In this document: piece by piece, positions 1-30,588 of the stretch
Position numbering within the stretch: position 1 is the stretch's first letter
Layout: every line of letters begins with the position of its first letter
Source of the DNA: Folioceros fuciformis
Taxonomy: Eukaryota
Reading direction: 5' to 3'
NCBI GenBank assembly: GCA_049999805.1
Contig: JBNGIO010004408.1
Coordinates: 1-33,575, forward strand
DNA length: 33,575 nucleotides
Notes under the pieces: generated by a model
Database searches by the model: none
Told to the model about the DNA's origin: nothing
What the model saw: only the letters and a program-made list of their open reading frames with translations
Program-made: the position numbers and the translations under genes

Positions 1-34
1 AAATATCCAGTTACACAGTCGTGTGATCATCCAG

Positions 35-2288
35 GTCCTCGTTCTCGAAGCCTGTCTGCAAGGCTACAGTGGCAGAGGAGTGTGCTAGCATGAACTTTGG
101 AGAGGGTAGATGCCTCGGACACGCTCACGAAGGTTTTTCTATGAGCCCAGCGTCTGTTCGCGCATCGTAGTAAGTTTCAAATTTGGATCATTCCCGTTTA
201 AATTGAAGCCATCGAACCCTGAATCTGCTTGTAAGAGTGTGGATTTTGTTCCTGTAGGACATCAATTCGAGGTAAACATTTTTCAGTGTAACGTTCCCAG
301 CAGTGTATTTGAAGCTGAGCCCCACTGGACNNNNNNNNNNNNNNNNNNNNNNNNNNNNNNNNNNNNNNNNNNNNNNNNNNNNNNNNNNNNNNNNNNNNNN
401 NNNNNNNNNNNNNNNNNNNNNNNNNNNNNNCCACTGGACGCTACTAGCTAGATTCCATCACTGTGACAAGAAGCTGAGTTCTGCGTCTGTGGAGAGGGCA
501 CCGGCTATCCCTCGTGCGGAGTCTTGTGGTTTTGTAGAGGGGCGAGCATCTTTTGTCATCCGATTGTTGCAAGTTCATACAACTCTGCAGTGTTGAGTTC
601 ACGCACATGATACTCCACGTCTGTCGGAGGATTCGGTTTGCAGTCTTGTGGAACTGGAATGGACAAAATTGGATGCAGCCTTTTTTTGCAACCACAGTGA
701 TCATGTAGGCTGAAAAATATGAAGTAGGAAAGCTCCACTGTGATTGCAAGTACGATTGCACGCGCAGTCTAACTCGTTAGAAGGTAATTACTTGAAGCTG
801 CCTCAAACAGTGTTCAGTTCAGGCCATGGAGTTTGCGAACATGAGTTCTATAAGGCAAGGCAGTTGTCCTCAGACTTCTTCGGATGTGCACGGGAAACTA
901 ATGTCACCTTTTACCTCTTTGCTCGTCTGCGTAGATTGGGGTCTTCAAGCTTATAGGGATCGTGTGTCTTCGCAGTGTGCTGATGGATTGTCTGGAATAG
1001 AATGTAGTCTTCCTTCAACTACAGGCTGGCCCAGCTGGCTGCCGTATAAAACGTGGAGTTCATCTTTTCAAACACAGCAGTCCAAAGGACGTTGTAGTAA
1101 GACTGGAAGTTGAGGAGGTCCGACCTCTTATCGACGTTTATGACTTGCCAGCGGAGTTTAATGCTCATACGTTGCAGGTAATTACTCTCTTTTGGTTTCA
1201 GCCTTTCACTTTTTCTTTCGGAGAACGCCATGGTCATGAAGCAGTACTAATTCCCCCGCTCTGGTGCTGTTGCAGGGACGCCGGTTTGACTCTGAATGTG
1301 TGTCTGTCACCTCTATGGATCCATGTATGAAACTGTGTGGACAAGTGAGCTATATGGGTGCTGAGTTCTGTCCCTGATCAAGTTGCGTTTCTGGCTGCAC
1401 TTTTATCAGCCTAGAAAAGTGTTTTGAGATGTATGGCTTGGGGGCTTTTCCTGTCCTTTCAGTTTCAGCAGCAGCGCAGAATACTTGTTGTATTTACACT
1501 CTTGAAATTTCAGGTTTGGACGAGCGGATTGCTGTCTTGATTTGGCATGTACGTTCACCTGGTGTGGCCAGTAATCTGATGGAGATGGTGGTTGGTAAAC
1601 AAATTTGTGGTTATCGATAGGTACTTCGGCTGGCGTGGCTACTTCTCGGGTGACCACAATTTTGCTTGAAGAAATGCTTGGGCAGTCCTCTTGATACCCA
1701 CTGTCAAGCGTTTATGTGATGGTTGTGGCAACCCTTGTAGTTTTTCTCATGGGATGAAGAAGCCTGCTCTGCCCCAAAGCACATGTGGAACAGTGTGATG
1801 CTGGTGTACTAGGGCAGTACCATGAAGAACTAAAATTTTTCAACAACACAATACTGGGCAGACAACTGGGATTCCAATCCTTCATCTTGGAGGGGGAATC
1901 CCCTTGCTACGACCCTTAAAAGGATCTTGTGCTTCCTGCCATAACAAAGCTGTGGGCCAGGTATCACACGCATGCCTGGTGCCACAATATGATGTTATCT
2001 AGATCTTCGTCATCATCGTCCTGGGTTACAACGCAGCCACTAGAGGGCGGGAACAGTCTGTTCTATTTCAGTGGCAACTTCGGTCTACAAAATGCAACTT
2101 CGGAATAAATGCATTTGTGGACGGCGCGAAGGCCGGTATGCGTAAGCTGTTCCACTTCTCGTTGCAGAATCTCAGTAACCAAGTCCAGCTACAGCTGAGC
2201 AATTGAAACTAATCGTCTAGCGTGTGATGGCAGGTATGGCATGAGCATCCGGCAGAAGCTGGCTGAGCAGTTTGCCTCAGAACCGAAC
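35..2288 (+). pseudogene. Degraded exostosin-family (GT47) glycosyltransferase pseudogene with N-terminal EGF-like repeats (At3g57630-like)
   Basis: Hand translation gives collinear family motifs across shifting frames: CLQGYSGRGVC*HEL (~53-97), HCDKK..CVCGEGTGYP..AESCGF (~459-533), CDCKYDC (739-759), SGHGVCEHEF (~818-847), QCADGLSGIECSLPSTTGWPSWL (~973-1041), RPLIDVYDLPAEFN (~1121-1162), GRRFDSECV..TVWTSELYG (~1276-1358), FFSWDEEACSAPKHMWNSVMLVY*G..YWADNWD..WRGN.CYDP*KDLVLPA (1741-1940), LFYFSGNFG (~2058-2084), YGMSIRQKLAEQFASEPN (2235-2288). There are many in-frame stops and frameshifts. GT-AG introns are still visible (e.g. 1961-2036). The C-terminal part is missing. Confidence 0.88.
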
Positions 2289-2479
2289 CTTGCATTCACC
2301 TCGAAGCCCCTCGTGATGGGAAATGGGAGTTACGTGAACTTGATCAGAGAAGATGAGTCTGTGCAATTGTTAAGTAGACATGGTGAGAAGACGGTGGTTG
2401 TTGGCACAGGCAAGCCATGGGCTAAAGCGAGGCAAGGGCAAAACTCTTAAAGCGCATAGCAGGGTGTGTAGCAGTGATT

Positions 2480-3500
2480 GACCTAGAGCGACCCGGTCAT
2501 CAGGGTGTAGGCACAGGGACCACTGTCTTGAGCGCAAGAGAACGAGGTGGAGCCGGAGCGGTCAAATTGAAGAGATGAGGGAACTTTCCGGGGACGATGC
2601 GTATGCGAATTTGAACACCACAGGTGGTGTGGTGTGGTGGTACCTCGTTGAGGAGCAGTGTCACACTTTTCTTCCCCCGTTCAGATTGCTGAGTCTGTGG
2701 TGGGCCGGTTGTGTGTAACAGGTTCTCCACTACAATCTGCACCATGACGAGTGGCGCGCTGTAGATATGAGAAAAGCAGTTTGGCGTGCCAGACCGTTGC
2801 AGAAGGAGGCATTGATGAGAAGCACGCTTGAGGTGCCACATTTTTCCCGTCCCTGTTCACTTGGGGCACTAGGTAGTGTTACTGCTGGTTGGAGAGCGGT
2901 GTTACCAAGGCCGGTGGTAATGGTAATGGCCTGGCATGTAGATAGCAAGCAGGGGGTCCCCGTTTTTTAAGTGAAAGTCATGGAAGTGTGAAAAGTGCAC
3001 CAATCCCAAACGGGGAGGATGGAACTGTGCCTAGAATCACGCTGGTGCTCCTGTCTCCCTCCCCCCGATGAGAAGGGAGTGTGACGGTGTTCCAGCTTCA
3101 CCCAAAGATCTCATGTGTCGCCTTATCTCAAGCTTGTGGGGAGCGGATTGCGGAAGGGGGACAGTGCTGTGCTGTGTGTACTGGACTGGGTAATGGGACG
3201 GTGGGAAGCGCCAGTAAGAGGCGGGAAGCAGGGGATGATAGCCCCGTTGTGGCGGAACGGGATTGGAGAGTGAAGCCGGGCCCCGTCCAGCAGTCGTTGG
3301 TGCACTGTAGCAGTCAAGGCTGGTGCCACGACTGAGACGGACCTGGGTGGTGGCAGCAGATGGAATCAAATCCCGTTTCCCTTCCCGTTTGGTCGCCATC
3401 AAGGTACATGCTTCCAGGGCGGGGTGTGGACGGTAGATATATTTGGCGACTCCAGGCGGGTGCCGAGTGCGCTTCTCTGCCTGAAATGGCTCCCAACTGT
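2480..3500 (+). mobile_element. Possible highly degenerate non-LTR (L1-like) retrotransposon ORF2 C-terminal remnant
   Basis: Weak motif echoes in the expected order: TVLSARERGGAG (~2522-2557; cf. PKxxGGLG), LHPKIS...GERI...CCAVC (~3096-3179; cf. zf-RVT), YIWRL (~3438-3452; cf. WxIWxxRN). No RT core, poly-A tail or TSD was found. Confidence 0.28.
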
Positions 3501-3954
3501 AGAAGCCAGGACCCCACCCACATGTCGCTCATAACTCCCGTTGCAAATTAAACTGGCACTGTAGAGGGGGCGATCAGGAAGCCACCTTGCGGGGGCCTAC
3601 CTTGGGTGTACAGTTTGGGCACACGCCTTGTCCGGGGCCCTCGTTCTGACACCCCTTTTCAACCACCATGTGGCCCGTTCCGTTGGACTGTTGGGAACTT
3701 GGGGGGGGGAATAGCCTGTGCTGTGTGCAGCACACCCCACAGGTAGTATTCCATGGATGTGCGCCAGGAAGGGTGGAAACTAGGGCGGGCGTGGCAGGCA
3801 CGGGATTGGAATAGGTATTTGTGGGGGACGGCAAGGGATTGCAATGCAGATGTAAGATGCAGCGGGTCGCCCAAAGACGTTGGAATTCGACAAGAATCCC
3901 GATTCCGCTCGGCGGCTTTATTCTTGGGCGGCCAGCAGCGGGCGGTCCCGGGAA

Positions 3955-3994
3955 CAAGAGCAAGAGCAAGAGCAGGAGCAGGAGCACAGGAGCA
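3955..3994. repeat. Hexamer microsatellite (CAAGAG/CAGGAG)n
   Basis: caagagcaagagcaagagcaggagcaggagcacaggagca read directly. Confidence 0.85.
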
Positions 3995-5530
3995 GGGCAT
4001 GTATCTAAGCGAGTATGTATCTAGTTGCGAGTATGTGGTGCAGATGGCCAATGGGCATGTCGAGAGGAGTGTGGCCGGTCAGGGATGCGGACCCACAACC
4101 CATCCGGCTTCTTGTCAAGCCATGGATGGCTCTGGAGCTTCTGGCCCTGGGATTGTGAGCTTGAGGGATTCGCAGCGCCTTCCGACCGCTGCAGTGCAAG
4201 CGGGGCCAGCCACGGTGCCCCCAGCATACCCACACGTGAAGGCCACCCGTCGGTAGGCCCCATTCCTCTGCACCCTTGGTATCTCTGATCCTCTTTCCCC
4301 CGCAAGTGCTGCATATCTCCACGCTCTGCCCATGGCCTCATCACCTCACCGCTGTTTAAAACTCCTTCTTCTGCACGCACCTACACACCTCCCTTCACAT
4401 TGAGCTTGCAAGCTCTTGGAATGTCTCTAAATCATTTTCTATGAAGTTAACCTTGAATTGTACTGTTTTGTATGAACCTTCCTTTTTTTTTTTTCACTCC
4501 TTTCTCTTTCAATGTAGATAAAAGTTCTCATTTTTTTTTTTTTCTCCACATCTAATCTCGTTTCCATTAGCTAGGAAGTGAAGCGGACACATTATTGAAA
4601 AAACAAGATGTTCAAGAAAATGGTTGGAAGCCTACATGCATGAGACACATGAGATCTTCCAAAAGCGAGCACATGATCCAAAACGAGCTGGCTTCTTTTT
4701 TTGTGGGCATTGGTGATTAATAGGTTTGGCATCTACGATGGAATGTGAATGTTATCCCTTATTATCCGCCACAAAGGACATAGGCAACCATGCATGTATT
4801 GAGGAGGATACAACATACATTGAAGAGAGTATCACATACAAGGTTGTAAGTGAGAGGCATGCCGAGACAAAGAGATTTTTTCCTTGCCTTGTACCTTTTT
4901 TTGGTTTGGTTTGATATTAAAAGAGGGAATGTGGGGGGTGATCCATGACGTGTGGGAGTGGGACAAACTTGTTAACTACCTTGAACTACCCACATCTTGC
5001 TGCCCTTGAGGCTTTGTGGAATGTGCAATATAATACTTGTAAATTACTATCTAGCTAGATTCTATTTTACAGTATAAAAATAATTTTTATACTCAATTTT
5101 TAAAAAGAAGAAAAAAAAAGCCAAGTTGTTGTGGAAGGCCAAATTGTGTTGGTGTGCACTAATCGCACCGGGTTCGAGCATCCTCTCATGTTACCGTAGC
5201 CATAGGCAACACGATGGTGGGCAGTCTAGGAACGTCGTCCGGCGATTCCTTCAACACCAAGACACAGCAAGCGTTAGAGAAACGGAGCATGCTCGTGATC
5301 ATTCATACCACAACACGGGACGTACTGACCACCCGTATACACATATCATACAGACACAAAAGAAGAGCGTACAGCCAACGCCCCAAGGACGAGTAACTGC
5401 ACCCTCGACCAGCAGGAGCCACTTCCAGCAAGCAGCAAAGAGGGAAAGGAGGGAAAAAGGAAGAGCAATGCAGCAGGATTCCAAACACATATCTCATTCC
5501 CGTACAAGGCTCTCCAGGGAGAGCAGGTCC

Positions 5531-5613: not shown

Positions 5614-6774
5614 NNNNNNNNNNNNNNNNNNNNNNNNNNNNNNNNNNNNNNNNNNNNNNNNNNNNNNNNNNNNNNNNNNNNNNNNNNNNNNNNNNNNNNN
5701 NNNNNNNNNNNNNTCCCCGTCCAGTCCTCCCTCAGTTGCAGTAGCAGCCCACCGGCCAACTCAGGCCAATTGTGTGCGACGAGGAGCGAGGGATTTCTGG
5801 GTTGCTGCGGTTTGCATTTGCGAAGGACCCATGTGCACGACATAAGTTACATGTGTTGTAATCATCGAGGTAATGGGCGGAAGGCTCACCTCCCGTCACT
5901 GCATCTGTTGACTGGTCAATCGGAGCATGATGAAGAAGGCCGAAGGCCCCAAGAAGGCCAGGAACCCATCGTGCTCGGGGAGGACGCGTTGCTTACAAGC
6001 GGCGGTTGTAGAGACTCGAGACGACAAAACACATACCAAGTCATGGCTGCTTTGGTCACCGCGTTGTCTCATTTTGACGGTCCATGTGAACCTGCGCCAG
6101 TGCAGACAAGACAAATTAGCCCGCCTCCAGCGAGCTTATGGAGATAAACTCCAATGGACATGAGGCTCCTGGCATTTTTCGGGAGGCAGTCCCCCCAGGC
6201 GCCTGCTTGTCTGCCACCCTGCTGCCGCAAGCTGTAAGTGCCTCCCTTCAAGCACGGCGCCTGTCGCCACCAGATTCTCCTTGACCGCATTAGACCGGGC
6301 ACAAGCCACATTTGTGCCGTGGTTACTGTTTTCAGGGACCCATTCAGTGCTGGCATTTGATTAGCAGCGGCCATAAAGGAGGAGTAATGCGACGCCTCCG
6401 ATGGAGGCGTACCAAGTGCCCCCTATTTAGTGTGGACGCCGTGGCACACACTCTGTCTCACTTACGGTACAGGAGGAGGAATGGGTTTCATTATGGGGTT
6501 AGATCTTGCTTAGCGCGGAGCCACGGCGCTTCCCTACCCCTCAATCATCACCGGCGCTGGATGTAATGGAGGCTGGCAGCAAAGACTCATCTAACTTTAG
6601 TGCCTATTAATCAGTGATTTCAGCAGGAAAAGAATGACAGCCTGAAAGCCTGTGAATGCCCTGTCTGCCTGCTGCGAGCGTCTCTGACATGCCCACTTGG
6701 AACATCGTCGCATTATACAGTGCAGAATGTGTGGATACCACGTAGCCTCCTTCCTTGTCACTGCCACCCGCCCC

Positions 6775-6838
6775 GTGGCGCTGGCAGTGGCAGTGGCAGT
6801 GGCGCTGGCCGTGGCAGTGGCGCTGGCCGTGGCCGTGG
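6775..6838. repeat. Degenerate hexamer repeat (GTGGCA/GTGGCC/CTGGCC)n
   Basis: gtggcgctggcagtggcagtggcagtggcgctggccgtggcagtggcgctggccgtggccgtgg. Confidence 0.85.
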
Positions 6839-7752
6839 GCTGGCGACGGAACCAGAAACAGAACCGGCCCCGCATGCCGGCACTGCAACGCATTCATGTG
6901 CTAGACGCCAAAACCTGCCCCCGGGTACACACTTGTGCTCCAGCTTCAGTACTTGCGGGGCCATTTAATATACTATATACTGACTTGTCATCAACTGGGG
7001 GGGCCGAGACCGGGGCACGGGCCGCGGCTGCTGCTCCTCCGCCTCCGCCTCCGCCATCACCATCCCACCAACAGGGTGGAGTGTCCTGCTGGCGACCGGG
7101 TCCAGCGTTGCAGGACGGGCGCGCGGTCCCTGCATAAACCCATGGCGAGTTGGAGAGAGGAGGGTGCCCGTCCAGCCCGGTCTGGGCCGGCACATACACG
7201 GGCCTAATCCTAGCTAGGCCCTACTACTCCTCCACCATCATGCACTTGCATGCATTCATTCTCTTGGAGCTAAAGAAAGGTTGCTTGCCTCGCAAGGGGC
7301 TCCATCCGATGGAATTAGCCTGCACTCCAGCTCACGTTGGGCTCATCAAAGCGATGTAGAGTAGAACGGAAGGCTGTGCTGCGCTGCATGTCGTGCCTAG
7401 TGACCTCATCTCCATAAACGCAAACCGGGCTCCAAGTTAATACTGGGACCACAACCCATCAATGCACACAAGAAAGTAGTCACCAGTCGTGACGGTATCA
7501 TGGCCTTCTCCATTCGCGTCTCTCTCACTGCTGCTAAGCAATGACGAAGAGGGAGCTCAATCACACAAGGCGGAGGAGTTCATCAAGAAGGAGATGTACA
7601 GTACATAAATCAAAGTGGCCCGGCGTGCCTGCTGCCTGCACCCTGCTTAAATTCCCATCATGCTTCCACATGCATGCCATGCGATATGAACATGGCGGTG
7701 GCGTCGGCGGCGAATAGTGCACCTCATCTGTCTGACCCTGCAATGATCCAAA

Positions 7753-7789
7753 GATCCACTGATCCACTGATCCACTGATCCACTGATCC
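7753..7789. repeat. Octamer tandem repeat (GATCCACT)n
   Basis: 4.5 perfect copies, preceded by a degenerate copy (gatccaaa). Confidence 0.9.
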
Positions 7790-8209
7790 CGGTCATCGGA
7801 CGCGAGAAATGGAAGCCCCTGGACCTGGACATGGACCTGGAGGTGGCGGTGCACTCAGGGTCACAATTCCCCTCCGGTAGCTTCCGATTTGGCGAAATCC
7901 CGGGGAGAATAACAGCCCGGAAATATTTTTAGAGCGTAGCCCTGATCGGGCCGCGAGCAACAGAAACGCATCCAGCAGATGCCGATGCTTCCCCCGGAGC
8001 CGACCACGCCTCGATTCTCGGCCCCCCAAGTCGGTCATCCTGTCCTGTCCTACTTCACTTTGTCTTGCGTGCACGGCCCCCGAGATCCCACACATGACCA
8101 ACCAGGGCATGGCGATGCGCATGCTCTTATCCTCATGTACCAAACACATACATAACCCCCACCTGATTATGGGATCCTTCACTTCTCCTCCACCCACACA
8201 CCCGTGTAC

Positions 8210-9142
8210 TTAGTGTTGAATGCGGTTGAATGCCGGTAAGAGTCCCCGCAAGCAGGCAGACAGTCTGGTAGCAGAGAATCGTAAGGACCCCAGCGAGGCC
8301 AGATCTGCAATCGACTGCTGGCCAGAAAAGGCCATGGAATGCGCGCGCTTCACTTTGATACTGCCTGCAATCGTACCTTTCGTCTCATTGCGGTGAAGGT
8401 GTGAGTGAAACCCCCAAGGACAGCTTTCCAACTCAGCCAGCCCATGCCGTGATGTCGACGGATGCCCTCATTCCTTGACCCCTGGCTCCACTTGTTGACT
8501 GCCTCTGCCTCTGCCTCTGCCTCTGCCTCTGCCTCTGCCTCTGCCTCTGCCTCTGCCTCTGCCTCTGCTTCTGCCTCTCTCAAATAAGACCAGGACTGGT
8601 GCTGTTGCTGGTGCTGGTGCTGGTGCTGGTGCCTGGCCGAGGTTTGCACCAACTTGCCGCTACCTGCGCATCTGTGAGCCTTGTGAGAGAGAAGACAAGC
8701 AAATCTCCACGCAACCAGAGCGTCACCTTTCATACCCAAAAAGGCCATGCATCCATGTCCATATGATCCACATACATATGTACTCACATATGTCCACTTT
8801 GCACACATGCTGTACAGGAGGAAGGTACAGCCGGGCCCATAGGATGTAACCAGACAAGACATCGTCATGGACTGGAGATCCAAAAGGAAACGGCAAGACC
8901 GCGGAGCGAGAGCAAGAAAGAGGAGGTGCGGCACGTCTGTCTGTCTGTCACGCACACCTTGTTCCAAGATAACAGCCGTCGATGTCGTCCCGGATGCCGA
9001 AGGACTGTAAACGACGGCGAGTACTGGAGAGCGAAGCAGGACAAGTGGAGGCGCAGGCGCAGGAGGCTGCTTGCCTCAATACATACATACCTCCTAGAAT
9101 TTGCTTACTGGCATACGCAATAGCCTCCCAGGTAGTGCGCAT
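8210..9142 (-). CDS. Candidate small spliced gene of unknown function (117 aa; alternative-frame isoform 149 aa)
   Basis: Predicted exons are 9142-9091, 9004-8958 (or 9023-8958), 8871-8788, 8679-8664 and 8364-8210. All introns are GT-AG (donors GTATGT, GTGTGC, GTGAGT, GTAGCG), three of four are 67-108 nt, and the phases join to 354 nt: MRTTWEAIAYASKQILGVLRHPGRHRRLLSWNKSMTMSCLVTSYGPGCTFLLYSMCAKWTYAHRCAGSIKVKRAHSMAFSGQQSIADLASLGSLRFSATRLSACLRGLLPAFNRIQH*. Simple repeats fall only in the predicted introns and leader. No family recognised; it could be a lncRNA. Confidence 0.5.
8499..8578. repeat. Hexamer microsatellite (GCCTCT)n, about 13 copies
   Basis: Read directly. It lies in predicted intron 4 of the candidate gene and is followed by (GCTGGT)n at ~8596-8635. 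Confidence 0.95.
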
Positions 9143-9146
9143 GAAT

Positions 9147-9230
9147 TCACGCGCCAGCAATCCAGAGCCGGTGGCAGGCAAGTTGGCGGACCGAGATGGA
9201 GAGGAGCGCAGGCAAACCGACAGGCACCAT
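9147..9230 (-). promoter_or_regulatory. Candidate upstream ORF (27 aa, MVPVGLPALLSISVRQLACHRLWIAGA*)
   Basis: ATG at 9230 and TGA at 9149-9147. Only 4 nt (ATTC) separate it from the downstream ATG at 9142. Confidence 0.4.
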
Positions 9231-11737
9231 AAATAGGGAGACCGGGGCCCCGCCGGCGGTGGCGAACGGGGCTGTCCTCAACACACGTCCGCCAAAAAGG
9301 AGAGGGGCTCGCCGGGCGCGCCCCGGTGAATCGCGGCCTCGCTCGCTCCCTCCCTCGTGCAGAGATAAGCGATGATTAGGCGCACAGCCATGCAGGCAGC
9401 AGGAGTCCAGGAGATAGAGCCGGAGCCGGAGCCGGAGCAGGAGGCGGAGCAGCAGGTGCAGCAGGGGAGATGCAGGGAACTGTGACACGCCTGGGAGTCG
9501 GGGGCTCTGATCAGGTTATGTGCGTGAGCATGGACGGACATTTTGGAGCGGTGTAGGCAGGCTTTGTGTGCGCGAGCACCGCCACTGCCACTGTCACTCT
9601 GCCACTCTCTGTCCGGCCTCGCACAAGTGAGAATGATCCTCTTTTCTTTTCTTTCCTCCCGTTCTCTTGCCTTGCGCACAGCACACACATTCCGCACTCC
9701 GCGCTTTTCCAACGCACCTCCAATCCATCCCCTCGCACTCACGCATACCCGCCCTCACGCATACAGTATGCATATCCCGCATGTGTGAAGGACGGAAGCC
9801 CGCGCTTAGCCGTCCCTCCTGCTGATATCAGCACGGGAGTCGGTCGCTGTTGCTCTTTCTTTGTTGAACAGGTCATTCATTCACTCATTCATTCACTCAT
9901 TCCTCCCTCCCTCCCTCGGCATCTCCATCCATCCTCCATCCAATTCCTTCCGCATACCACACTACATTTGCACACCATTCCCAGCAGCCAGCCAGCCAGC
10001 CAGCCAGCCATTGGAGCAAGCTTGGTTGACAGATAACTCCCCTCGCCTCCTCATTGCTCGCACCAGCCTGCTGCATCTCGTCGGTGGCCCGGCCCCAGCG
10101 ACGGAGACGGTAACGCCATGAGTCACCTGTCCCGCAACTGTAATTCCCTCCTGCACCCTGACGTGCTCTCAATCATGCATGCATGGGGTAATCACCTGCA
10201 TCCTCTGCTGCAACACGATCGTTCCTTGCACACCATAACATAAGGCGAGGCGTGCGAGATTAAATCCCCTCACATCACCAGCCCAGGGATCCGGAGCTCC
10301 ACCTTCAAGCCGCGGCAATGCCAATGCCGCCACACAACCGAAAGCCTGCCGCTCCTGGCGCTGTACGACCACGGCGCGTGAGAGACGGTACGGTCGTCCC
10401 ATTCCCTGCCCCTCCACTTTTGCCCTTCGCGCGTGCCCGCTGCGGATGACGCCCGGGAAGATAACTACCCGACTTCCGCCCCGGCTTACATACACGCCGG
10501 GCTGGGTCGGGTCGGGTGGGATCTGGGATCTGCGACCCGGGCCCAGACCGGGACCGGGACCGGGACACGACAAGTCCCACTACATGTATGTACATACACT
10601 CAGGGTCGTGGACGTGCATCCACGTTCCAGGCGTCCGTCCAAAAAGGCTTTCAATCCCCCGACGTGCCCACGTCGGGTGGGTTAAACTCCGCTACTTTAG
10701 CGGGCCGCCAAAATAGCCGGTGACTGCCTCCAATCTGACAGGCCACAGCCCGGTCTCGTCGTCTGGCTGTCATGACCGCCAGACACCTCCACCTTTTCCA
10801 CGCTACCTGCCAAGCTGCCGGTGCCCTACGAAGCCTAACCGCAGTTAAGGCGTAGTCCAGCGCTGTCAACTCCCGTCCCTTCCCTTCCCTCCCTTCCCGT
10901 CCCGTCCCGTCCCGTCCCGTGAGGTGGCTCCCACTTACGTCTCGGGCTCCGAACCTTCTGGACCCCCGGGCCTGTTGTTGGCGGCATGCGCACACCGAGA
11001 CGGACGCCAACGGAACGGCCCCCGAGAAACCCACCACTGCTTTTTTGTCGTCTCTTGTTCACACGAGTTAACTGAACTCCTTCCTACCTTTCTTTGCAGC
11101 TACCACTTCTTCTGTCTAGCATATTTAGCTCTGGCTAGATTTGTGGAGCTTGTGTCCAAGCTACGTCTATTGGGTTTGTAACTATTGAATTATTATTTTT
11201 TTCCGAATATTATTTATAGAAAGGAGGAGTGATATGGTCTAGCTAGGAAAGATAATAAAGAAAGAAGTAAAGAAATAAATAAAAATTGAACGTGTCCAAT
11301 AGCTAAGCTAACTCATGTGCACATGTTTCGAGATGAAGTTGATTCTTTTGAAGCAGGCAATATCCCAAGGGGGTGGAGTCCTTGTCTCGATATATGTGTT
11401 TGTGTGACGTGTAGATTATAGTGAAGATAGAGGAAGAGAGAAAAGATAGAGGAAGAGAGAAAAGGGCAGGGGAAGAGAAGGAGAAGAGAAGGGAAGGGAA
11501 TGGGTAAGGTAAGGTAAGGTAAGCTGGGCCAGCAATATTTGGAATGGCTAGAGTTATACGGCAGAAACCAAGGGGTGTAGAGGAAGAGGCGGTACAAAAG
11601 AAGAATAAACAAGGAAAGGAAAAAGGGTAGTGGGTACGGGGAAATTAAATAAGAGGGCGGCCGAGGCCGTGACGACTGAGGCGACGCGACGCCAGGCAGG
11701 GCGGGGCCCGTTCTGTGTGACCCCGTTCCGTCCCGTG

Positions 11738-11808
11738 GGGCCGGGACGGGCCGGGCCTGGCTGGGACGGGCTGGGACGGGGCCGGGGCCGGGGCCGGGGC
11801 CGGCCGGG
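11738..11808. repeat. GC-rich pentamer/hexamer repeat tract (GGGCC/GGGAC/GGGGCC)n in the intergenic region between divergent transcripts
   Basis: gggccgggacgggccgggcctggctgggacgggctgggacggggccggggccggggccggggccggccggg. Similar tracts occur at 10540-10567 and 10872-10920. Confidence 0.8.
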
Positions 11809-13309
11809 TAGGGGGAGTAAAGTGCGTGCAAGGAAATGGATTGCGTACCGTGTACAGAAGAAGATTAAAGGATGGATACGCATTAAACCGAGGGCGTAAC
11901 CGTGCACCGGCAATGAATGCCCGTTCCGTCATGCGCCTTACCGGGGTTACGGGGTGGGAGGCAGGTTACGTCTCTCTCTCTTCGTCTCATGCCTCGGCTC
12001 ATGGGGGTGACAGTCGAGAGACTGTGAGGTGAGGCGTGGAGAGGTGTCTTAGTTTTGCGTGAAAGAAGGCGCCCGCCCTGGGTTCCGGTTGGGTTGGGCT
12101 GGGCTGTGCTGGGCTGGCCTGCTGCTGCCCGCTTGCTTCCCTTTGCTCTCTCTTCTTCTCTTTGTCTTCTCTGCTCGCTCTGCTTCGCTCTGCTTCGCTC
12201 TGCTTCGCTCTGCGCTGCGCCCTGGGAGAGAGGCCGGCCTGCGACTGCGAGGCCAGGCTTCTTTCTCTTTGCCTGATGCGCGCACTGGCAGTATAGCGGT
12301 GGCAGTGGCAGTGGCGGCACACCCATTGCTCATCCCGCGATCTCGCCATCCTCGGGACGTGGCGCTTGGACGGATAGGAAGCGCCCAAGGCTAGAGGGCT
12401 TTGGCGCTCGCTGGCGCCTCCACTGTGACTCTGCCACTGTCCCGGCCCCCGCCTCCGCCTCCGCCTCCGCCTCCGTCCCTCTTGCTCTGCCTGCTTGCTT
12501 CTCTCTATTGTGCGGAATTCCGTTTAAGAGCTTCCTCTGGCAGGCCTGCCTTCGCTCCGCCCCGCAACTGCTTCGTCTTCTCCGCCTTCTACCGCTTCTC
12601 TTTCTCCTCCTCCTCCTCCGCTTCTGCTCCGCTGCCCGCACCTCCTTGCGGGGAAAGGATAGGATAGGAAAGGGCTGGGCTTTTCTTTCTCGTCCCCTGC
12701 TCTCTCAGATTCGGGTCTTAAGTCGGCTTGCTTGCGTTGCTGGCTTCTCTTGGTGCTGCAATTGTGCTTTTCTTGGGAGGGCGGGGTGGTGGTGTGTGCC
12801 GGAGCCTGATCCGTGCTAGGTGCCTTGTTCCATCTCCCTGTTACGCCACAGGTGGGGAGGTGGCGTTTGGTCGGGTCGGGTCTGGTCTGGTCTTGTGTGG
12901 TAGGGGAGCTCGCTCTTGGGGCTCTGGGTCGTTTCTGGCCCTCGGTGCGCAATTTGGCGCGTTGAGGTGAGTGCTTTTCTCTTCTCCGACTCCGGTCTTG
13001 GTGTAGAGTGGAGTGACGGGGGCCTGGATGCCGGCCGCTTCCAAAATTCTTGGAGGTGGATGTTGCATGTGGCGGTTTGGGAACCCGATCTGCGGCCACT
13101 TGTCAGCGCAATTGGGGCCTTGGAGGAGGAGTGTTGGTGCGTGCTGCTGATGCGGCTGTGTTTGAGTGTACCTTGGTTTGAGGATTGAGGTGGCGGGTAT
13201 CTTTGACGCCGGATAGAGGATAATGCAGTGACGGTCGAGGGGGTGGAAGGATAGGAGTTGCCATCTCGAGTAATTGCACGTCAGGTTTGAGAGGCTTGGG
13301 GCTGCTTGC

Positions 13310-14409
13310 ATGGGGAGAACGGGACCCGTAGCAGCAGGAGCGTACTCCATCCTTGATCAGGATCCGGGCGTGAGTACCATTGCTAAGACCATCGGCCGTC
13401 GTTGGTTCATGGACAAGACTGACGCAGACAAGTCGGCAAGCGCAACCGCTGCGTCCGACGTTGGAGCGTTTCATGGAAGAGAATCATCTCAGACGATGAA
13501 GCCATCTAGGACCGCCGTGCCGCAATGGCCGCCTCAGCTCGTTGATGCCGTGCAGAATCATTTGGCGCTGCTCTTTTCCCAGAATGCAGGCGGTTCGGAG
13601 AGCAGCAGCCTGTCGAGTGAAGAGGACAGCATCACCTCGAGCGAGTGCTCGGTGGAGAGTGCCACGGATATGCTCCGCCTACAGGAGCAGATGGGTGAAT
13701 CGGAGCTCTCCGGTTGCAGCTCCAGCTGCTTGTCTGAGTCCGGAGACGATGTGCGTGAGGAGATTGGGGATGAGTGCAGACCGGATGATGAGGCAAGCAA
13801 GGGTATGGATGTCCAGCCGCTCAAAGCGAACAGAGAAAGATCGGACGGATTCCTCGCCACTCGTGATCTGAACGCGGCATTATCTGCTGCCATTCTAGAA
13901 GGGATTCGGGCTAGGGATTACACCTCCCTGAAGGTCGACCGTCATAAAAGGAAAGGCAGCCCTGTTACTCCTTATCATGGATGGATGGAGCGAATGACGT
14001 ACTGGCGGAGCCGTTCCGACGACGAATGGATTGGCGCAGGACCTCAGATTGAACTGGATTCGCGGCCCTTGCCTTGTGGCTGGGAACAAATTTTGAACCT
14101 CAAGGTAAGAAGTCTATTGCCCAGTGTACAGCCCTCGGATGAATTGTGCTTCGGTCTTTCCGTTCAGAGCTCTAGCATGTTGTAGGATTTGTACTTGTGA
14201 GCGTATGCATGAAAGAATCTCATGTTGTCTTGTCTTGGACCCTAATTTTGCAGACGGGAAAGATCTTTTATGAGAATGAGGAGACATGTGAGCGCACTAG
14301 TGCAGACCCTCGCAAGCGCATGCGGATGGATGACCGTCTCCGCGGACCAGCTTGTGAGCGTCAACAGGAGGACTCAATTTCCGACACAACGGTTGAGGGT
14401 AGTTCTTAG
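13310..14409 (+). CDS. WW-domain protein, CURLY FLAG LEAF 1 (CFL1)-like, ~316 aa
   Basis: Exons 13310-14104 and 14254-14409; intron AAG|GTAAGA...TTTTGCAG|ACG, phase 0. The spliced junction reads IELDSRPLPCGWEQILNLK|TGKIFYENEETCERTSADPR, matching the plant CFL1-type WW motif (LPxxWEqxLdLktGxiyyxn...xdPr). The N-terminal region is Ser/Glu-rich. A probable 5'UTR intron lies at 12967-13284 (GAG|GTGAGT...GTCAG). The start codon and the last exon are less certain. Confidence 0.8.
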
Positions 14410-15282
14410 ATAGTCTAGCTCCAATTTATCGCGAGAGTGTAGGGCTTTGGAACGCGGACGGATTGTTGTTATCTTCATCTTTTGTTCTTGCCCTATCACC
14501 CTTCTGTGGCCTCGTTGGAGGCAGAAACTCCATCAATTTCTGTAAACAACTCTCAATACCCTTCCTTACATTCAGCAAGTCGTCTGCTCTATTGGTTAAA
14601 TAGTTCTAGACTCGGAAAGTTACAAAGCACGCTCGCGCTCTGCTCGCGGAAGTTGAGCTTGCTGTGCCTATGCGCAAATAGAACCGTATATCATAATCAA
14701 AACTTCGTGCATATCAATTTTTTTGCAGGGAAGCAATCGACGATACGAAGAAAAACTCATATTACAAGGACGGCTGGAGAATCACCTCCCTTCCCACAAT
14801 TGACCACACCTCTTCGACAAAATACTTCGCTACCACTACAAGGATAAAACGTTCCACAACTGCATGTTAACCATGCTCCTCGCTTATCTCGAGCGAAGTG
14901 GAGACTGACTAAGTCTGGCAAAAGACTTGGCTGAGCTCCCTAAATTTACACGCTACTTGAAGACAGGATGCAACCACTAAGCTCGGAGAAAGTACGATCA
15001 TACCACTGTCCACTACTGGGTGAGACATCATAAATAGCAGCAAACACTCAAATTGATGTCCTGACGTCATGCAGATAGCAGTCGATCGGAATTAGCTTTA
15101 CTCTTTGGACAGCTCAATCGGACTTCGGTCACAACGGAATGATGCCACACTGCTCACATTCAGGAAACAGAAAACAGTGACTGGCGCCAGGAGATGGGCA
15201 CCTTCAACTTGCTGGCTGCAAGTTCCGAACACCAGACAATTTGGTTTCTCCAGTATGAAGAATTGAGAGTCATGATGTATTC

Positions 15283-18174
<2,892 letters not shown>

Positions 18175-19920
18175 GTCTCCTGCCGCCCTATTCTGGCGCT
18201 GCCAGCAGATCCAATACCCAAGCACCCGGATCGGCCACAAATGTGGCGGGGGATCTACAGAACCCTAGCCTGCTGCTCCCGGTGCGATCTGCAGTCCGTG
18301 GCCGGCAATGCGCCAGGCGATGGCGCAGCTGGATCCGTCAAAGAAGGGTTTGAAGGAACCAGCCTGTGGTAGTGCAGCACGCTGTATGATCGTAGCTGCT
18401 GAAGTTCCCAGGCCTGGCGTCGGCCAGTCCGGCGTGGCTCGCCTGCCTGGGCTGCCTGCCCTGGGAGAGGGTGTTGAAGTTGAAAGGAAAGAGCTGATCG
18501 GTAGGCCGGACCAGACCAAGTAAGGCTTGTGTAGCCGTCCACTTTTTCCCCTACTAGGACAAACGACCCGACCAAATCCCTCCCTCTTTCCCCGTTCCAG
18601 CTAACTACGCATTTAGCTTACCTTACTCGTATCACGTTCAATTAACGTCAATTCAAAACCATGCCTACACTAATATGTGGTCAGTACAATGATTATATTA
18701 TATTTTTAAAATTTTTAGTTATTTTTTTATTATTGGAAAAGAGATAAAAAATTCCATCTATTCCAAAAATTGAAGGAACAATTCAAAAGGCCAAAGACCA
18801 AGGGGGTACTTAGTCCATCAAACATTATTCTCAAAAGCTCCTAAAATATTATGATGTTGAATAATAAAAAGTCTACTATCATTTATTCAGAGATTTCGTT
18901 ATCTCTTGATAGCTAGATTTAGGATATGTGTAAATAAAAACAATGAGCAACATTTAATTGTGCATGGAGAAGGGCTCATTCTATGATATAATTGAGCAAG
19001 TAGTAGCTCATTTAGGATGTATGAAAGTCGTAGCTTATTTTAGGGCATGTATAACTAGCTATATGACTCACTTAACATGTATTAGCAATCATGTTGATAT
19101 ACAAGTATTCAAAATTTAATAATTAATAATAAATATACATATAGAAATAAGATTCTTTTCACTAGTTTGAAGTAACCATTAGACCTAGTGCATGCTATAC
19201 TACATGTAGTTATTTTATTACAAATATTTTTATTTAAATAATATTTTTTTATTACTTTTAACACAGAAATATTTAGGATTTCAGATGCTTGTAACCACAT
19301 AAGTTAGTTGAATAGCCCAAGGTAACAAACCAATTATTATAAAAAAAATATTATAAAGGATAACATCAACATTTATTCAAGACCCATAGTCGTAGATTAA
19401 TTATTGACCCATTTGCATTTAGTTTCATCCTAAGGGTCCATTTAGAACTCAGTAGTCTTTTTTTGTTCTTTAGTGAGATAGTTAGTGTCCAAGTTTTATT
19501 AGCGTTTAGTTTTTTTAGTTTTTCATGCCTGTGTGTTACTTCACGACGTCCTAGATCCTGTCGATCACCATAAACACTAATTGAATCTAGTTTAATAGCT
19601 TTAGAATGTCAGGTCCCACTGACATTCTGAAGATGAGAAGACTCCCACAAGCCTCACCCAGAGGAGAGGGTGCGTAGGACAGTAAGGTGGGCTTGACGCA
19701 TCTGCTGAGGGCAATTGAACCCTAGAAAATTGGAAAGCCTGATGGTGGGCTAGATAAAACCAGGGCTTTAGATCCAAGCTACTGCGATAGTCGTACCACA
19801 ACAAAACAAACCAAGGAAGGAAGGCTGCACCAGGCCAATGAATTACGAATGTCCCAATACTTTTCAGGGGAGGGCCATCTCTTCACATCACTCACTCGTG
19901 GAGTTCGACAATCTTTCAGT

Positions 19921-20031
19921 TCATCAACGTGTCGTTCTATCAAGCTTGCTCCATCAATGTGTCGTTCTATCGAGCTCCATCAATGTGTCGTTCTGTCGAG
20001 CTCATCAATGGGTCATTTTATCGAGTTGCTC
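19921..20031. repeat. ~25-30 bp tandem repeat (4 copies) overlapping the PGM stop codon and 3'UTR
   Basis: Unit approximately gctc(c)atcaatgtgtcgttctatcga. The rightmost copy is the coding end (minus strand CTCGATAAAATGACCCATTGATGAG). Confidence 0.9.
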
Positions 20032-21752
20032 CCTGTAGGCAGCTAAGTCCTGCAAGACAGCAAAGAAAAAACAGCAAGACAGTCGATTTCAGCAACCCCT
20101 GCACCTCGTGGGAGGCCCGCTTTACAGACAAAAAGATGAGGCGTGAACAAAGATGAGCTTACGTGAGTCAGAGCGTACACCCCAGTTGCATCAGGACCTA
20201 TGGGACTTCCCCGCCTCAAGTAATTACCGTGTCTAAAAATATAAAGCATCGGAATTCCAGTTGACAGCTCCAAATCGATAACCTACGATCAAATGAGTAC
20301 ACTTGTGAACTTTGAGATTCAGCACAATTAGCCTTCACACGACCCCGTAGCTCAAGTAACAAGTCCCGTCAGCCAAAGTTGTGGTTCGTAGAACACTGGG
20401 ACCTACCTCCTGCGAGGTGAGTTTATCCAAGTACATGATTATAGATCTCAGCGAGTTCCCATGAGCGGCTATCAGTATGTTCTTCCCCTCCTTAAGCTCA
20501 GGTTCAATCTGCAGAGAGAGTGGACAAACAAAGCATCAGACACACAGCACTGCACTTCTTGCTTGAAGAGGAGGTGGAGAGAAGGGCAATTCAACTTGAA
20601 GAAGTGAGAAGGTAGACGACCTCTGCTTTGAAGTATGCAACAGCACGTGCAGCGCATAACTCCAAGCTTTCACCATTTGGAGGAGGGATGTCATAGCTGC
20701 GACGCCACTCCTGGACCTTGTCTCGTCCATACTTGTCTGCAGTCTCCTTCTTGTTCAGGCCCTGCAGCTCGCCATACCTGCGTCCCCTCCACACAGGTTG
20801 AATTCAAGACACAGCGAAAGAAGTGCCCTGTCTTGAACCAGATCATGAAGCCCTCCTTGAGCCTACACTTACATGCGCTCATTAAGCTCCCAGGCTGTTA
20901 CAACAGGGATAGATTGTTGCTCAGTTTCGGCACTGTGAATCTTGCTCCAAGATTTTTCCCTTTCACTTCCCGTGTGCAAAATGACAGGCACCTACATGAA
21001 ATGAAGCACGAGTCAAAAACCCCCTGCTTCCATAAAGCATCTTGCAAAGACTACTAGTAGGCACAGACCAAGACAAACACACAGTCTTCAAATGCAGCAT
21101 GAGAAAATTCACCTTCTTCCTGCGATGCTGCGTCATGGCCAGCATCGCTGTCATCTGAGCCCGAATCAAGGCCGATGTGAAAATGACATCAACAGGGATG
21201 TCACAAATCCTCTTCCCAGCCTCGATAGCCTCTTCCACTCCCTGTTTGGAGAGAGGAACATCCACACAACCAGTAAAGAGGTTCTTCTGATTCCAGAGGG
21301 ACTCTCCATGCCTGATGAGTATGAGCGCGGCGTCAGCTGCACAAATTAGACAACACCCATGCGCGGTGAGCCTCCCGAACCAGCAAACGCCGCCCGGAGA
21401 CTAAACCTACAAGAAAAACACAAATTTATACTGCCTTACTCGGCGTGGCGCCAGTCGCCGAGCTGCCATGTGCAGAGCTAGTCGCCGCGTCCGTGGACGG
21501 AACCCCGTTTGGTGCAGTCGACACACAGGAGATAGCAATCCTCCTTACTCTACCAGCAGAATTGACCTTCTTAAGGTGCGCCTTGAAAACGGCGCTCCCA
21601 CACACGCCTCCACGCCGCACGCCCGAAAAAGACGCCCTAGAGGAGGCGGAGGCGTAGTCCGTGCTCGTCCTGCTCCCTCCTCCAGCATGCGCAATGATCT
21701 CAGACGACGACAAGGAAACATATTGCGCGGGGCAGAACGCCTTAGCAGCCAT
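20005..21752 (-). CDS. gpmA: 2,3-bisphosphoglycerate-dependent phosphoglycerate mutase (histidine phosphatase family), probably plastid-targeted, 359 aa
   Basis: 7 exons: 21752-21440, 21336-21113, 20991-20873, 20777-20621, 20508-20407, 20282-20163, 20049-20005; total 1080 nt in frame. Motifs [46 protein letters not shown] and LSTGIP. The Ser/Ala/Arg-rich N-terminus resembles a transit peptide. Confidence 0.96.
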
Positions 21753-24491: not shown

Positions 24492-25052
24492 TCAGTTGAC
24501 ATCTGAGGCTTTGAGGCCCAAGGACAAGACCTCAACGTAGAGCGCCACATTGCTAACCATTGTTAAAAATGAGGAAGCAGCTCCGGCACTGAAAAATCCC
24601 CCCGCCAACTCCTTACAATGGCCATTTCCAGGGTAGAATGATCTATTCGTCTGCACAGCGTTCATAACAGAGGCAACAAGCAAAACAAACTCGGAGAAAG
24701 TAAAGGAAAGCCACACCAAGGCCAAGAAAAGATAGGGGAGCTCCCTACTGAGCTTATCATGTGAAGCGCCTGGGTGGGGAAACCCATAGAAAAAGGATTT
24801 CGTCGCAGTTATGACCGCAAGGTGGCCGAAAAGGAGGCAAATCATCGCTCCAACCCCGAAGCCCGACGCATTAGTGCTGGTGTATTTGCAATACATAATA
24901 TGTGCGTCCGGCCGATAGTGAGTCGTATCTTCCCTCAACACAGGCTTGCTTCGGTTCACTTCGCCAGCTATCGCAAGTCCAAATGCGATCAAGTCCACCA
25001 CAGCTACAAGCAGGATAACCATCCATGCATATGGCGGTATTCGCACTGCCAT
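24492..25052 (-). CDS. DUF1218-family membrane protein (MWL/Fb34-like), copy 1, 186 aa, intronless CDS
   Basis: N-terminal hydrophobic helix ending in DLIAFGLAIAGEVNRSK, then YCKY..ASGFG.GA, further TM segments, and C-terminal CKELAGGFFSAGA, the typical DUF1218 pattern. Confidence 0.88.
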   Translation of the reverse strand: MAVRIPPYAWMVILLVAVVDLIAFGLAIAGEVNRSKPVLREDTTHYRPDAHIMYCKYTSTNASGFGVGAMICLLFGHLAVITATKSFFYGFPHPGASHDKLSRELPYLFLALVWLSFTFSEFVLLVASVMNAVQTNRSFYPGNGHCKELAGGFFSAGAASSFLTMVSNVALYVEVLSLGLKASDVN

Positions 25053-26180
25053 CGGTCAAGGCAGGCCCTGCTGAATTTCAGCTGCCTGCAGAGATCACTG
25101 TCCAGCAACACCGAAACTTAGATTCAAATTCCCGTCCGGAAGCAGAGGCTCCAGCTCCAACCGCGACTTGCTTCTCACGGAACAACCGTGACACACTGCA
25201 GTGCTTCCAGGACTACCGCTCCTCCGTCTGCTCTCAGCTTTGATTCCCTGAAAACGTTGCACAGATCCACACGCAGAACCTCAGATTGAATCCACGCCAC
25301 AGACGGGGTAACCAGCTACAATCGTGCAGTTACCGAGGCGGATAAGGTGGGAAAGCCGAAGCAAGAGCGCAGATCTCACACCGATACGAGCGGAATTTGC
25401 TTGTTGCATGTTGGATGAGGCACAGCCATGAATGTTCTCTTAACGGTGGGATCGGCTGCAGCAACTTTTAGCCTATTCTAGATTGGCAGTCCATTCTCGA
25501 TGTTGGTCTCTGGAGGGATTTGTAATTAGCTAATTTTTTAAGAAATTGATACTTCGAGTCTACACCCTGGAAACGACTATTACCTTCGAACTTTCATTTC
25601 AACGCTTCGGGCCGTAATGAGTGGACGGGTGTCATGGAAAGCCAAAGTGGAACGTGGCTACATATTAACGCTATGGTTATCAAGAACTTTTTTTACACAA
25701 ACTTTTAAAACACAACAAAGAAGAAGTTCACATGTTAAAACACTTTGTCCCCGTCGTCATGGTTTCCTAACAGGAAGCATGCGAAACAAGCTTAATGGTC
25801 TTCCGAATCAATAGGAGCGCCCTCATGCTCTCCGGCCGGGATGAAGCAGCCTCAGAAACTATCAGGTACTTGGAAATGGTAAACCAGCCTTTGGTATCCC
25901 TTTCGTATCCTGCAGGACCTGCGCCTGCGAGACGCGAACCGCATCCCAGCGAGTTCCAAACTGAATTGAAGGCACGACAAAGCATCTCACGTCTAGGGCG
26001 ACCAGCTGCACATCCACCCGAACCAGCTTGTGGACATAAGTCTTGGAACTCGAGGACCCCTGGAGAACGGGAAGTCGGACGGCCTGCTTATTTTGCCTGT
26101 TATCCCACCAAATTATGATCACCAAAGTACTTACACACCAAACGATATCAAAGGAGGTGAATCCAGCCAAGGATCCGCAC

Positions 26181-26777
26181 TTATTGTGGGTAGGCATCAC
26201 CGTTGCCATGTTCGATCGTAGGTTGAAGCCAAGGCTGGAGGATCCATAAGATTAAAGTGTAGTACGTTACACTGTACAACATCGTCAAGAATGAGGCAAT
26301 AGCTCCGGCAGTGAAAACTCCTTTCCTCAACGCGCTACAAACCACAGTTCCGACTTCGAATGATCCTTCCGTGTGCACAGCGTTCAAGCTTGAGGCTACA
26401 AGCAACAATGCCTCGGAAAGAAGAAAAGAAAACCACACGATGATGAGCGAACACCAGCCGACTGCTTGAGAGAGCTCGCCAAAAAAACTGTTGGAGTAGG
26501 GACCCCCACAGCAAAAGCATTTCGTCGCTTCTATGACCGCAAGATGGCCTAAGAGAAGAGAAATCATCGCTGCAATTCCGTATCCCGTCGCCTTATTTGT
26601 GTTGTATTTGCAATAGGTAAAATGTTCATCCGGCGAATAGTGAGTCTCATCTTCCGACAAAGTAGGCTTGCTTCTGTTCACTTCGCCCGCTATCGCCAGT
26701 CCAAATGCAATCATGTCCGCCACAACCACGAGCAGTAAGACCGTCCAATATCCATACCGCGATATTCGCACTGCCAT
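26181..26777 (-). CDS. DUF1218-family membrane protein, copy 2, 198 aa, intronless CDS
   Basis: ATG at 26777 (MAVRISRYG..., aligning with the copy 1 start). Motifs DMIAFGLAIAGEVNRSK, YCKY, TKCFCCG and CSALRKGVFTAGA. Confidence 0.9.
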   Translation of the reverse strand: MAVRISRYGYWTVLLLVVVADMIAFGLAIAGEVNRSKPTLSEDETHYSPDEHFTYCKYNTNKATGYGIAAMISLLLGHLAVIEATKCFCCGGPYSNSFFGELSQAVGWCSLIIVWFSFLLSEALLLVASSLNAVHTEGSFEVGTVVCSALRKGVFTAGAIASFLTMLYSVTYYTLILWILQPWLQPTIEHGNGDAYPQ

Positions 26778-27575: not shown

Positions 27576-27667
27576 TTTGAGCAAAGCAGATTTTGTGTCC
27601 TAAGGCTAGAATGAAATCGGGTTTGAGCGAAGCAGATTTTGTGTCCTAAGACTAGAACGAAATCGGG
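27576..27667. repeat. 46-bp direct tandem duplication
   Basis: tttgagcaaagcagattttgtgtcctaaggctagaatgaaatcggg followed by tttgagcgaagcagattttgtgtcctaagactagaacgaaatcggg. Confidence 0.9.
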
Positions 27668-30480: not shown

Positions 30481-30588
30481 CTTTATTTTTTGGATAAGTT
30501 GTAAATGAGGTGTTATATAGTTTTCTTTTGGCCTCCTCAGTTAGCATTGCGCTAATTACTTTGTTAAGTCCTTGTAGGGATTGCTCTA

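What the first reader, a model, noticed from the sequence alone, without database searches (positions are those of the whole stretch)
8210..9142. Cryptic five-exon small gene hidden in microsatellite-rich 'intergenic' DNA
Seen: four GT-AG introns on the minus strand, most with pyrimidine-rich acceptors and sizes like those of the neighbouring genes, join five short exons (52, 47, 84, 16, 155 nt) into an ATG-to-stop ORF of 117 aa. The ORF track shows it only as fragments. The exons are complex sequence while the introns and leader carry the simple repeats, a pattern expected if the exons are constrained. I recognise no protein family. Inference: an unannotated conserved micro-protein gene or a structured spliced lncRNA. 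Caveat: I chose exon boundaries by eye, and the 16-nt microexon is the weakest part.
Basis: partly seen in the sequence, partly recalled or inferred. Interest (0 to 1): 0.75.

Follow-up and report, generated by a model that had tools for sequence, protein, structure and literature searches.

The report
Faint non-coding RNA, not microprotein gene
The proposed hidden five-exon protein gene is probably not real as drawn; the stretch, from a hornwort, is instead weakly transcribed non-coding DNA with a few real-looking short introns and unusually well-conserved blocks, most likely control elements for the neighbouring gene.

Summary
The five exons do join through GT-AG introns into a 117-codon ORF, but this is weak evidence.

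RNA contigs from four runs splice a control intron in 4 of 4 runs but list none of the four proposed joints. Contigs read straight through the intron-1 donor (2 runs) and the intron-4 acceptor (3 runs). Intron 4 has weak sites and 13% T. Introns 1-3 look real, with acceptor 8672 better than 8680, and one contig from a relative breaks exactly at donor 8957.

Conservation runs opposite to the prediction: 16.9% substitutions over exons 1-2, exon 3 unaligned, but 2.7-6.4% in 7868-8484, mostly outside the ORF. No protein relative, RNA family or RNA structure was found.

The window is from a hornwort. Best reading: a low-abundance, partly spliced long non-coding RNA, probably minus-strand, running across a cluster of conserved non-coding elements upstream of a CFL1-like WW-motif gene.

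The parts
9091..9142 (-).
   Evidence: X1 record 4 (9013-9176) and X7 record 20 (8958-9282) read through its donor
9005..9090 (-). Candidate intron 1 (86 nt): strong signals, but retained in both contigs that reach it
   Evidence: 15.4 bits
8958..9004 (-). Exon 2 (47 nt); its 3' edge is the edge of the X7 joint
   Evidence: table 5 (joint 8674/8958)
8872..8957 (-). Candidate intron 2 (86 nt); donor 8957 is the best supported splice site
   Evidence: 13.1 bits; joint edge exactly at the GT; 20 of 5281 minus-strand positions are donors this good
   Evidence: length budget of 60-141 letters between the pieces
8672..8787 (-).
   Evidence: 12.8 bits; acceptor 6.3 against 1.9; X7 piece ends at 8674, X2 and X3 likewise by depth arithmetic
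8365..8663 (-).
   Evidence: 5.6 bits, 13% T; acceptor read through by X1, X2 and X3 contigs with 120 or more letters on the intron side; TRF 8499-8578, 8596-8632
7868..8484 (.).
   Evidence: 2.7% (X3 core), 5.8% (X7), 6.4% (X2, X3) substitutions, with net length changes of +1, +10, +44 and +31, none a multiple of 3; single copy in the genome
7272..8486 (.). Longest unspliced low-depth RNA contig of the same or a near-identical organism (X1, 0 differences); further pieces 5800-6009, 6295-7257, 9013-9176, 9182-9524, 9497-9654
   Evidence: table 8
10153..10501 (.). Further conserved non-coding blocks (10153-10376, 10328-10501); others at 9501-9593, 7347-7501, 6255-6371
   Evidence: 4.9, 4.0, 6.5, 5.8 and 7.7% substitutions
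11385..14409 (+). Neighbouring gene: leader from 11385 or earlier, CDS 13310-14104 plus 14254-14409 (316 aa), WW-like motif across the intron; CFL1-like by recall; served as the splicing control
   Evidence: intron spliced in 4 of 4 runs; motif; no Pfam hit on exon 1 and no homolog found, so the name is not confirmed by a search

Best explanation
The 117-aa ORF is a product of free choice among splice sites. What is really there is about 5 kb of non-coding DNA (5800-10500) upstream of the CFL1-like gene, studded with conserved blocks and weakly transcribed. SHOWN: low-depth RNA contigs over the region in three organisms; blocks better conserved than the neighbouring gene; read-through of the intron-1 donor and the intron-4 acceptor. 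INFERRED: the RNA runs on the minus strand, away from the gene; it is inefficiently spliced at two or three short introns near its 5' end (donor 8957, acceptor 8672) and has a long last exon. MOST LIKELY MECHANISM (inferred): the blocks are cis-regulatory DNA (transcription-factor binding clusters) for the CFL1-like gene whose transcript starts about 3 kb away, and the RNA is the divergent, enhancer-type or lincRNA by-product of polymerase II activity over them. Selection then acts on the DNA, not on a peptide or an RNA fold.
For: Control intron spliced in 4 of 4 runs; 0 of 4 proposed joints among 10 listed; read-through by X1, X2, X3 and X7 contigs. Substitutions 2.7-6.4% in 7868-8484 and 4.0-7.7% in five other blocks, all five outside or at the edge of the stretch used to find the runs, against 12.8-13.2% in 12923-14102 of the neighbouring gene (5/184 against 156/1180, Fisher p 4e-6; against its exon-2 piece 17/196, p 0.015) and 16.9% over exons 1-2. 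Length changes in the blocks are mostly not multiples of 3. X7 record 20 is too short to be colinear: 60-141 letters are left for 283 nt, and both edges fall on predicted splice sites. Codon score of the 117-aa ORF is matched by 14% of random non-coding stretches. No RNA structure. Published background: plant CNSs lie mostly upstream of genes, are enriched near developmental regulators and overlap eRNA-producing enhancers (10.1101/2025.09.17.676453, passages); plant lincRNAs are lowly expressed (PMC9673970, passages).
Against: Only assembled contigs at depth 2-12 were seen. They cannot show strand, starts, ends or rare spliced forms, so a fully spliced mRNA in another tissue (sporophyte, sex organs) is not excluded. 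The X7 joint is one contig with 'between: not known' and could be a genomic deletion in that relative. The piece 8958-9282 coincides with a 109-codon stop-free frame (8948-9277) and changes length by -3 with few gaps, which a coding exon would also do. The codon test is weak: the real neighbouring gene scores only -0.04. Runs X2, X3 and X7 were found by words shared with 7600-9700, which biases the best block upward. The regulatory link to the neighbouring gene is untested. Two of the outlying blocks are less conserved (10.8-15.8%).
Confidence: 0.55

Rival explanations
1. The RNA itself is the functional unit: a spliced lncRNA conserved across hornworts whose long last exon (7868-8484 core) binds proteins or RNAs, or whose transcription tunes the neighbouring gene.
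For: Conserved blocks lie inside transcribed sequence in three organisms; splice edges appear conserved (8958, 8674).
Against: No fold beyond chance, no Rfam family, no miRNA-like hairpin (best MFEI -0.77); contigs are short and of low depth.
Confidence: 0.15
2. A hornwort-specific small protein is made, but from another isoform: 63-64 aa from ATG 9142 (introns 1-3 spliced at 8672, or intron 1 kept), or 168-170 aa ending at 8350 with His-Gln and Glu-Ala repeats (intron 4 kept).
For: These ORFs exist; the 168-aa form fits one reading of the X7 contig; 8958-9282 changes by -3 nt with few gaps; introns 1-3 score like real introns.
Against: The unspliced 64-aa frame had one hit among 1.84 billion representatives, a 27% match to a tandem-repeat protein. 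No usable Atlas hit for the 172-aa frame. These databases seem to lack close relatives, so the blanks speak only against deep conservation.
Confidence: 0.12
3. No defined transcription unit: conserved regulatory DNA with scattered read-through or contaminating DNA; the intron-like signals are chance and the X7 joint is a deletion.
For: Depth 2-12, fragmented contigs; three-intron chain reached by 13 of 300 shuffles before correction for selection; joint seen in 1 of 4 runs.
Against: Both edges of the joint sit on predicted sites: 20 of 5281 minus-strand positions are donors this good and about 44 of 5281 lie this near an acceptor this good. Introns 1-3 are T-rich and A-poor like the controls.
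Confidence: 0.15
4. The reader's exact five-exon gene encoding a conserved 117-aa micro-protein.
For: The ORF is open and all introns are GT-AG; donor 8957 matches the joint edge; exon 5 lies in the conserved block.
Against: Intron 4 is not intron-like and its acceptor is read through in 3 of 4 runs; intron 1 is retained in 2 of 2 contigs that reach it; acceptor 8680 is weak; conservation ignores the exon borders; such ORFs arise in 72 of 100 shuffles. Exon 5 has no Pfam hit, no Atlas lead above 0.75 and no paralog.
Confidence: 0.03

Closest known systems
Clusters of conserved non-coding sequences (CNS) upstream of plant developmental regulators, some producing enhancer RNAs
   Same: Collinear blocks of high identity with variable spacing upstream of a putative developmental regulator; low-level transcription (10.1101/2025.09.17.676453, passages; PMC12359857, abstract only).
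   Different: Open chromatin, factor binding and enhancer activity are untested here; the passages seen do not cover hornworts (0 occurrences of 'hornwort'); part of the RNA seems spliced.
Plant long intergenic non-coding RNAs
   Same: Low abundance, no credible ORF, only patches conserved (PMC9673970, passages).
   Different: Most are single-exon and species-specific according to that paper; this one has two or three candidate introns and is alignable in two other organisms.
Bryophyte pri-miRNA genes
   Same: Kilobase-long, sometimes intron-containing non-coding transcripts (PMC9291395, passages).
   Different: No precursor-like hairpin and no Rfam miRNA match.
Multi-exon small-ORF (micro-protein) genes
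   Same: ATG-to-stop ORF near 100 aa can be drawn through GT-AG introns.
   Different: No junction support for the chain, no exon-specific conservation, no homolog.
CURLY FLAG LEAF1 (CFL1), for the neighbouring gene only
   Same: Plant protein with a WW-like motif; CFL1 is a WW protein that regulates cuticle development through HD-Zip IV HDG1 (PMC3645734, passages).
   Different: The assignment is recalled from the motif; the homolog search found nothing and the motif is split by the intron, so Pfam could not test it.

Membership tests
   but chance gives this in 72 of 100 shuffles
   0 of 4 among 10 listed joints; intron-1 donor and intron-4 acceptor read through; contigs only, rare forms may be lost
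   the read tables list no differences inside the exons; no genome of a relative is held
   -0.07; four controls 0.09-0.15, the WW gene -0.04; 14% of null stretches score as high
   no such data on hand
lincRNA | Transcribed, over 200 nt, intergenic | tested here: met
   contigs of 963 and 1215 nt in X1, 974 in X2, 599 in X3, 644 in X7, in runs that splice the control intron; RNA status of the runs is the tool's guess
lincRNA | No translated conserved ORF | tested here: inconclusive
   no homolog or family, but close relatives seem absent from the protein collections
lincRNA | Defined strand, start and end | not testable with these tools
   contigs only; the minus strand is inferred from splice signals
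CNS cluster / transcribed enhancer | Non-coding blocks conserved beyond neighbouring sequence | tested here: met
   selection bias noted; neutral rate and divergence time not known
CNS cluster / transcribed enhancer | Open chromatin, factor binding, effect on a target gene | not testable with these tools
   needs ATAC-seq, reporter or deletion
pri-miRNA | Stable precursor hairpin with a miRNA/miRNA* duplex | tested here: not met
   best MFEI -0.74 to -0.77 in 100-300 nt windows; no Rfam match at gathering score; 4 chance-level matches at E up to 10
Structured ncRNA (snoRNA, snRNA, tRNA and the like) | Family match or fold beyond chance | tested here: not met
   (best z -1.75 of 16 folds)

The most novel reading that the evidence does not exclude
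A hornwort-wide, partly spliced lncRNA transcribed away from the CFL1-like gene, whose unstructured last exon is better conserved (up to 97%) than the gene beside it, works as an RNA or through its transcription to control that gene; or one of its isoforms yields an orphan 64-170 aa protein under control of intron retention. My two literature searches on hornwort lncRNAs and conserved non-coding elements (listings and abstracts only) showed no such case.
Probability: 0.2. Interest if true: 0.6.

Novelty: new member of a known kind. Interest (0 to 1): 0.25.

Why it matters
As a micro-protein gene it does not hold up, and the case shows how easily hand-picked splice chains make 100-aa ORFs in GC-rich plant DNA. 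What remains is modest but real: a 5-kb transcribed, strongly conserved non-coding region next to a probable regulator of cuticle or epidermis in a hornwort. It gives concrete candidate elements (7868-8484 first) for testing how old land-plant cis-regulation works in a little-studied lineage.

Tried and rejected
No RNA holder listed: all 14 runs are 'RNA?' guesses; 4 of 14 were laid. Parts without cover, not used as evidence: X1 has no contig over 8487-9012 or 9916-11385, and X2 and X3 none over 8675-9033. Microsatellites were masked at 8493-8642, and the tool cut its tables (40 pieces, 388 differences, 137 gaps and 21 loose ends not shown; 5 X7 joints dropped). My first reading, that X7 record 20 is colinear and unspliced, was wrong and was corrected by depth arithmetic. 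Rfam, ARAGORN, hairpin scans, inverted repeats and nine short recalled miRNA or tasiRNA cores: nothing in the finding; two partial cores lie at 11116 and 11983. Pfam on 16 frames: only neighbours hit; two sub-threshold matches on frames near the finding (E 0.025, 0.055). Own-genome searches: self only, plus two weak matches at E 0.3-0.4. Metagenome scan with a 20-mer of the conserved core: 2 hits, both chance, with no similarity beyond 26 nt. An ATG-led frame at 8038 in the conserved block is rejected: all three relatives' contigs change the A of its ATG and put a stop in it through the change at 7911 (table 3, read by hand). The bacterial promoter scan is not applicable. One control donor was mis-indexed and corrected; the WW frame was wrong and corrected. 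Earlier findings: 3 look-ups, nothing. No supplements were read.

Full report
OBSERVATION. The five exons are at the stated coordinates and join to an open 117-codon frame through four GT-AG introns of 86, 86, 108 and 299 nt. The window is the whole of contig C4408 of an 87-Mb genome and the stretch is single-copy by DNA search. The best named match to an exon of the neighbouring phosphoglycerate mutase is from the hornwort Nothoceros aenigmaticus (96%; Selaginella 92%, liverworts 89-91%), so I read the window as hornwort; the species is not determined.

IS THE ORF MORE THAN CHANCE? Across 48 isoform combinations the same ATG yields ORFs from under 45 to 206 aa. The codon score is matched by 14% of random non-coding stretches, though this test is weak. 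Single frames gave no family or real homolog; the joined protein was not searched.

ARE THE SPLICE SITES REAL? Partly. With a matrix from 17 control introns in the window, intron 1 scores 15.4, intron 2 13.1 and intron 3 12.8 bits when it ends at 8672 (controls 2.4-26.5, leave-one-out). Introns 1-3 are 29-34% T, controls 36%, intron 4 13%. The three-intron chain is the best of 32 local windows and is reached by 13 of 300 shuffles: suggestive, not decisive.

RNA EVIDENCE. I laid contigs of 4 of 14 listed runs on 5800-14600: X1 (identical to the window, possibly its own source organism) and three runs from three other studies of two related organisms. The intron of the neighbouring gene is spliced in 4 of 4. 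None of the four proposed joints is among the 10 joints listed. X1 (9013-9176) and X7 (8958-9282) read through the intron-1 donor. X1 (7272-8486), X2 (7876-8484) and X3 (8060-8484) read through the intron-4 acceptor.

One joint bears on the model: X7 record 20 jumps between 8958 and 8674. Its first edge is the intron-2 donor exactly; its second takes in the CAG acceptor at 8674-8672. Depth arithmetic shows that this 644-nt record also holds about 39 + 66 letters down to about 8380, which leaves 60-141 letters for the 283 nt of 8675-8957, depending on the assumed microsatellite length. It therefore cannot be colinear with the window. The budget fits splicing of introns 2 and 3 around a diverged exon 3; exon skipping or a genomic deletion are alternatives. 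X2 and X3 records hold the same 32-letter piece by the same arithmetic; that piece has only 11 letters on the exon side of donor 8663, so it is weak evidence for read-through there. All of this is contigs at depth 2-12: presence is shown, absence, strand and level are not.

CONSERVATION. They are 2.7% in 7868-8051, 5.8% in 7868-8195 and 6.4% in 7876-8484 and 8060-8484. The neighbouring gene shows 12.8-13.2% (12923-14102, leader plus CDS) and 8.7-11.6% (exon 2). Further blocks at 6255-6371, 7347-7501, 9501-9593, 10153-10376 and 10328-10501 show 4.0-7.7%; three others (5828-5946, 5993-6131, 6501-6671) show 10.8-15.8%. The best block takes in exon 5 but runs 340 nt past its stop and 120 nt into intron 4, with net length changes that are not multiples of three. 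Caveats: the runs were found through words shared with 7600-9700, only pieces at least 80% alike are laid, and the age of the split from the relatives is unknown. Against my reading, 8958-9282 matches a 109-codon open frame and changes length by -3.

STRUCTURE AND FAMILIES. No Rfam or tRNA match, no miRNA-like hairpin, and no fold beyond shuffles in the conserved blocks.

INTERPRETATION. The region is the roughly 5-kb upstream flank of a plus-strand gene with a 1.9-kb leader and a WW-like motif, which I recall as CFL1-like; CFL1 regulates cuticle development (PMC3645734, passages). The simplest account is a cluster of conserved cis-regulatory elements crossed by a faint, inefficiently spliced, probably divergent non-coding transcript. 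This fits published patterns for plant CNSs and lincRNAs (10.1101/2025.09.17.676453 and PMC9673970, passages; PMC12359857, abstract). The link to the neighbour, the strand and the enhancer role are inferred. Passages of two hornwort genome papers (PMC7027989, PMC8075897) gave background only.

VERDICT. Exact 117-aa gene 0.03; another translated isoform 0.12; functional lncRNA 0.15; no defined transcript 0.15; regulatory CNS cluster with by-product lncRNA 0.55. Interest 0.25.

Noticed in passing
window 11385-13309 (+): The WW-motif gene has a leader of at least 1.9 kb, unspliced in X1 over 12114-14102, with 16 upstream ATGs; three overlapping uORFs of 33-39 codons (11913-11931 starts) lie in a block that aligns in a relative (11820-12074). 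Possible translational control.
   Followed up: partly
window 24492-28663 (-): Tandem DUF1218 genes: two intact copies (24492-25055, 26181-26837; Pfam), a third partial match at 28321-28663, and ORF fragments of similar look between them.
   Followed up: partly
window 15280-18174 (-): PP2A-type catalytic subunit gene (name recalled; Metallophos hit), 313 aa through 11 introns; used as splice control.
   Followed up: yes
window 20040-21750 (-): 2,3-bisphosphoglycerate-dependent phosphoglycerate mutase gene, followed by a 26-nt tandem repeat at 19922-20025.
   Followed up: partly
window 28950-30540 and 19366-19608 (-): Broken ORF pieces that look like copia-type retrotransposon remnants (by recall); 19366-19608 resembles 29926-30216.
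   Followed up: no
window 1-4400: Fragmented ORFs with no Pfam hit in the three frames tested; possibly a decayed mobile element (impression only).
   Followed up: no
window 8376 (-): A good donor (7.5 bits) lies about where X7 record 20 ends by depth arithmetic (near 8380); possibly a further splice branch.
   Followed up: no
window 5614-5714 and 331-430: Two 100-nt assembly gaps (N); the first sits inside a hexamer microsatellite at the far end of the transcribed region.
   Followed up: no
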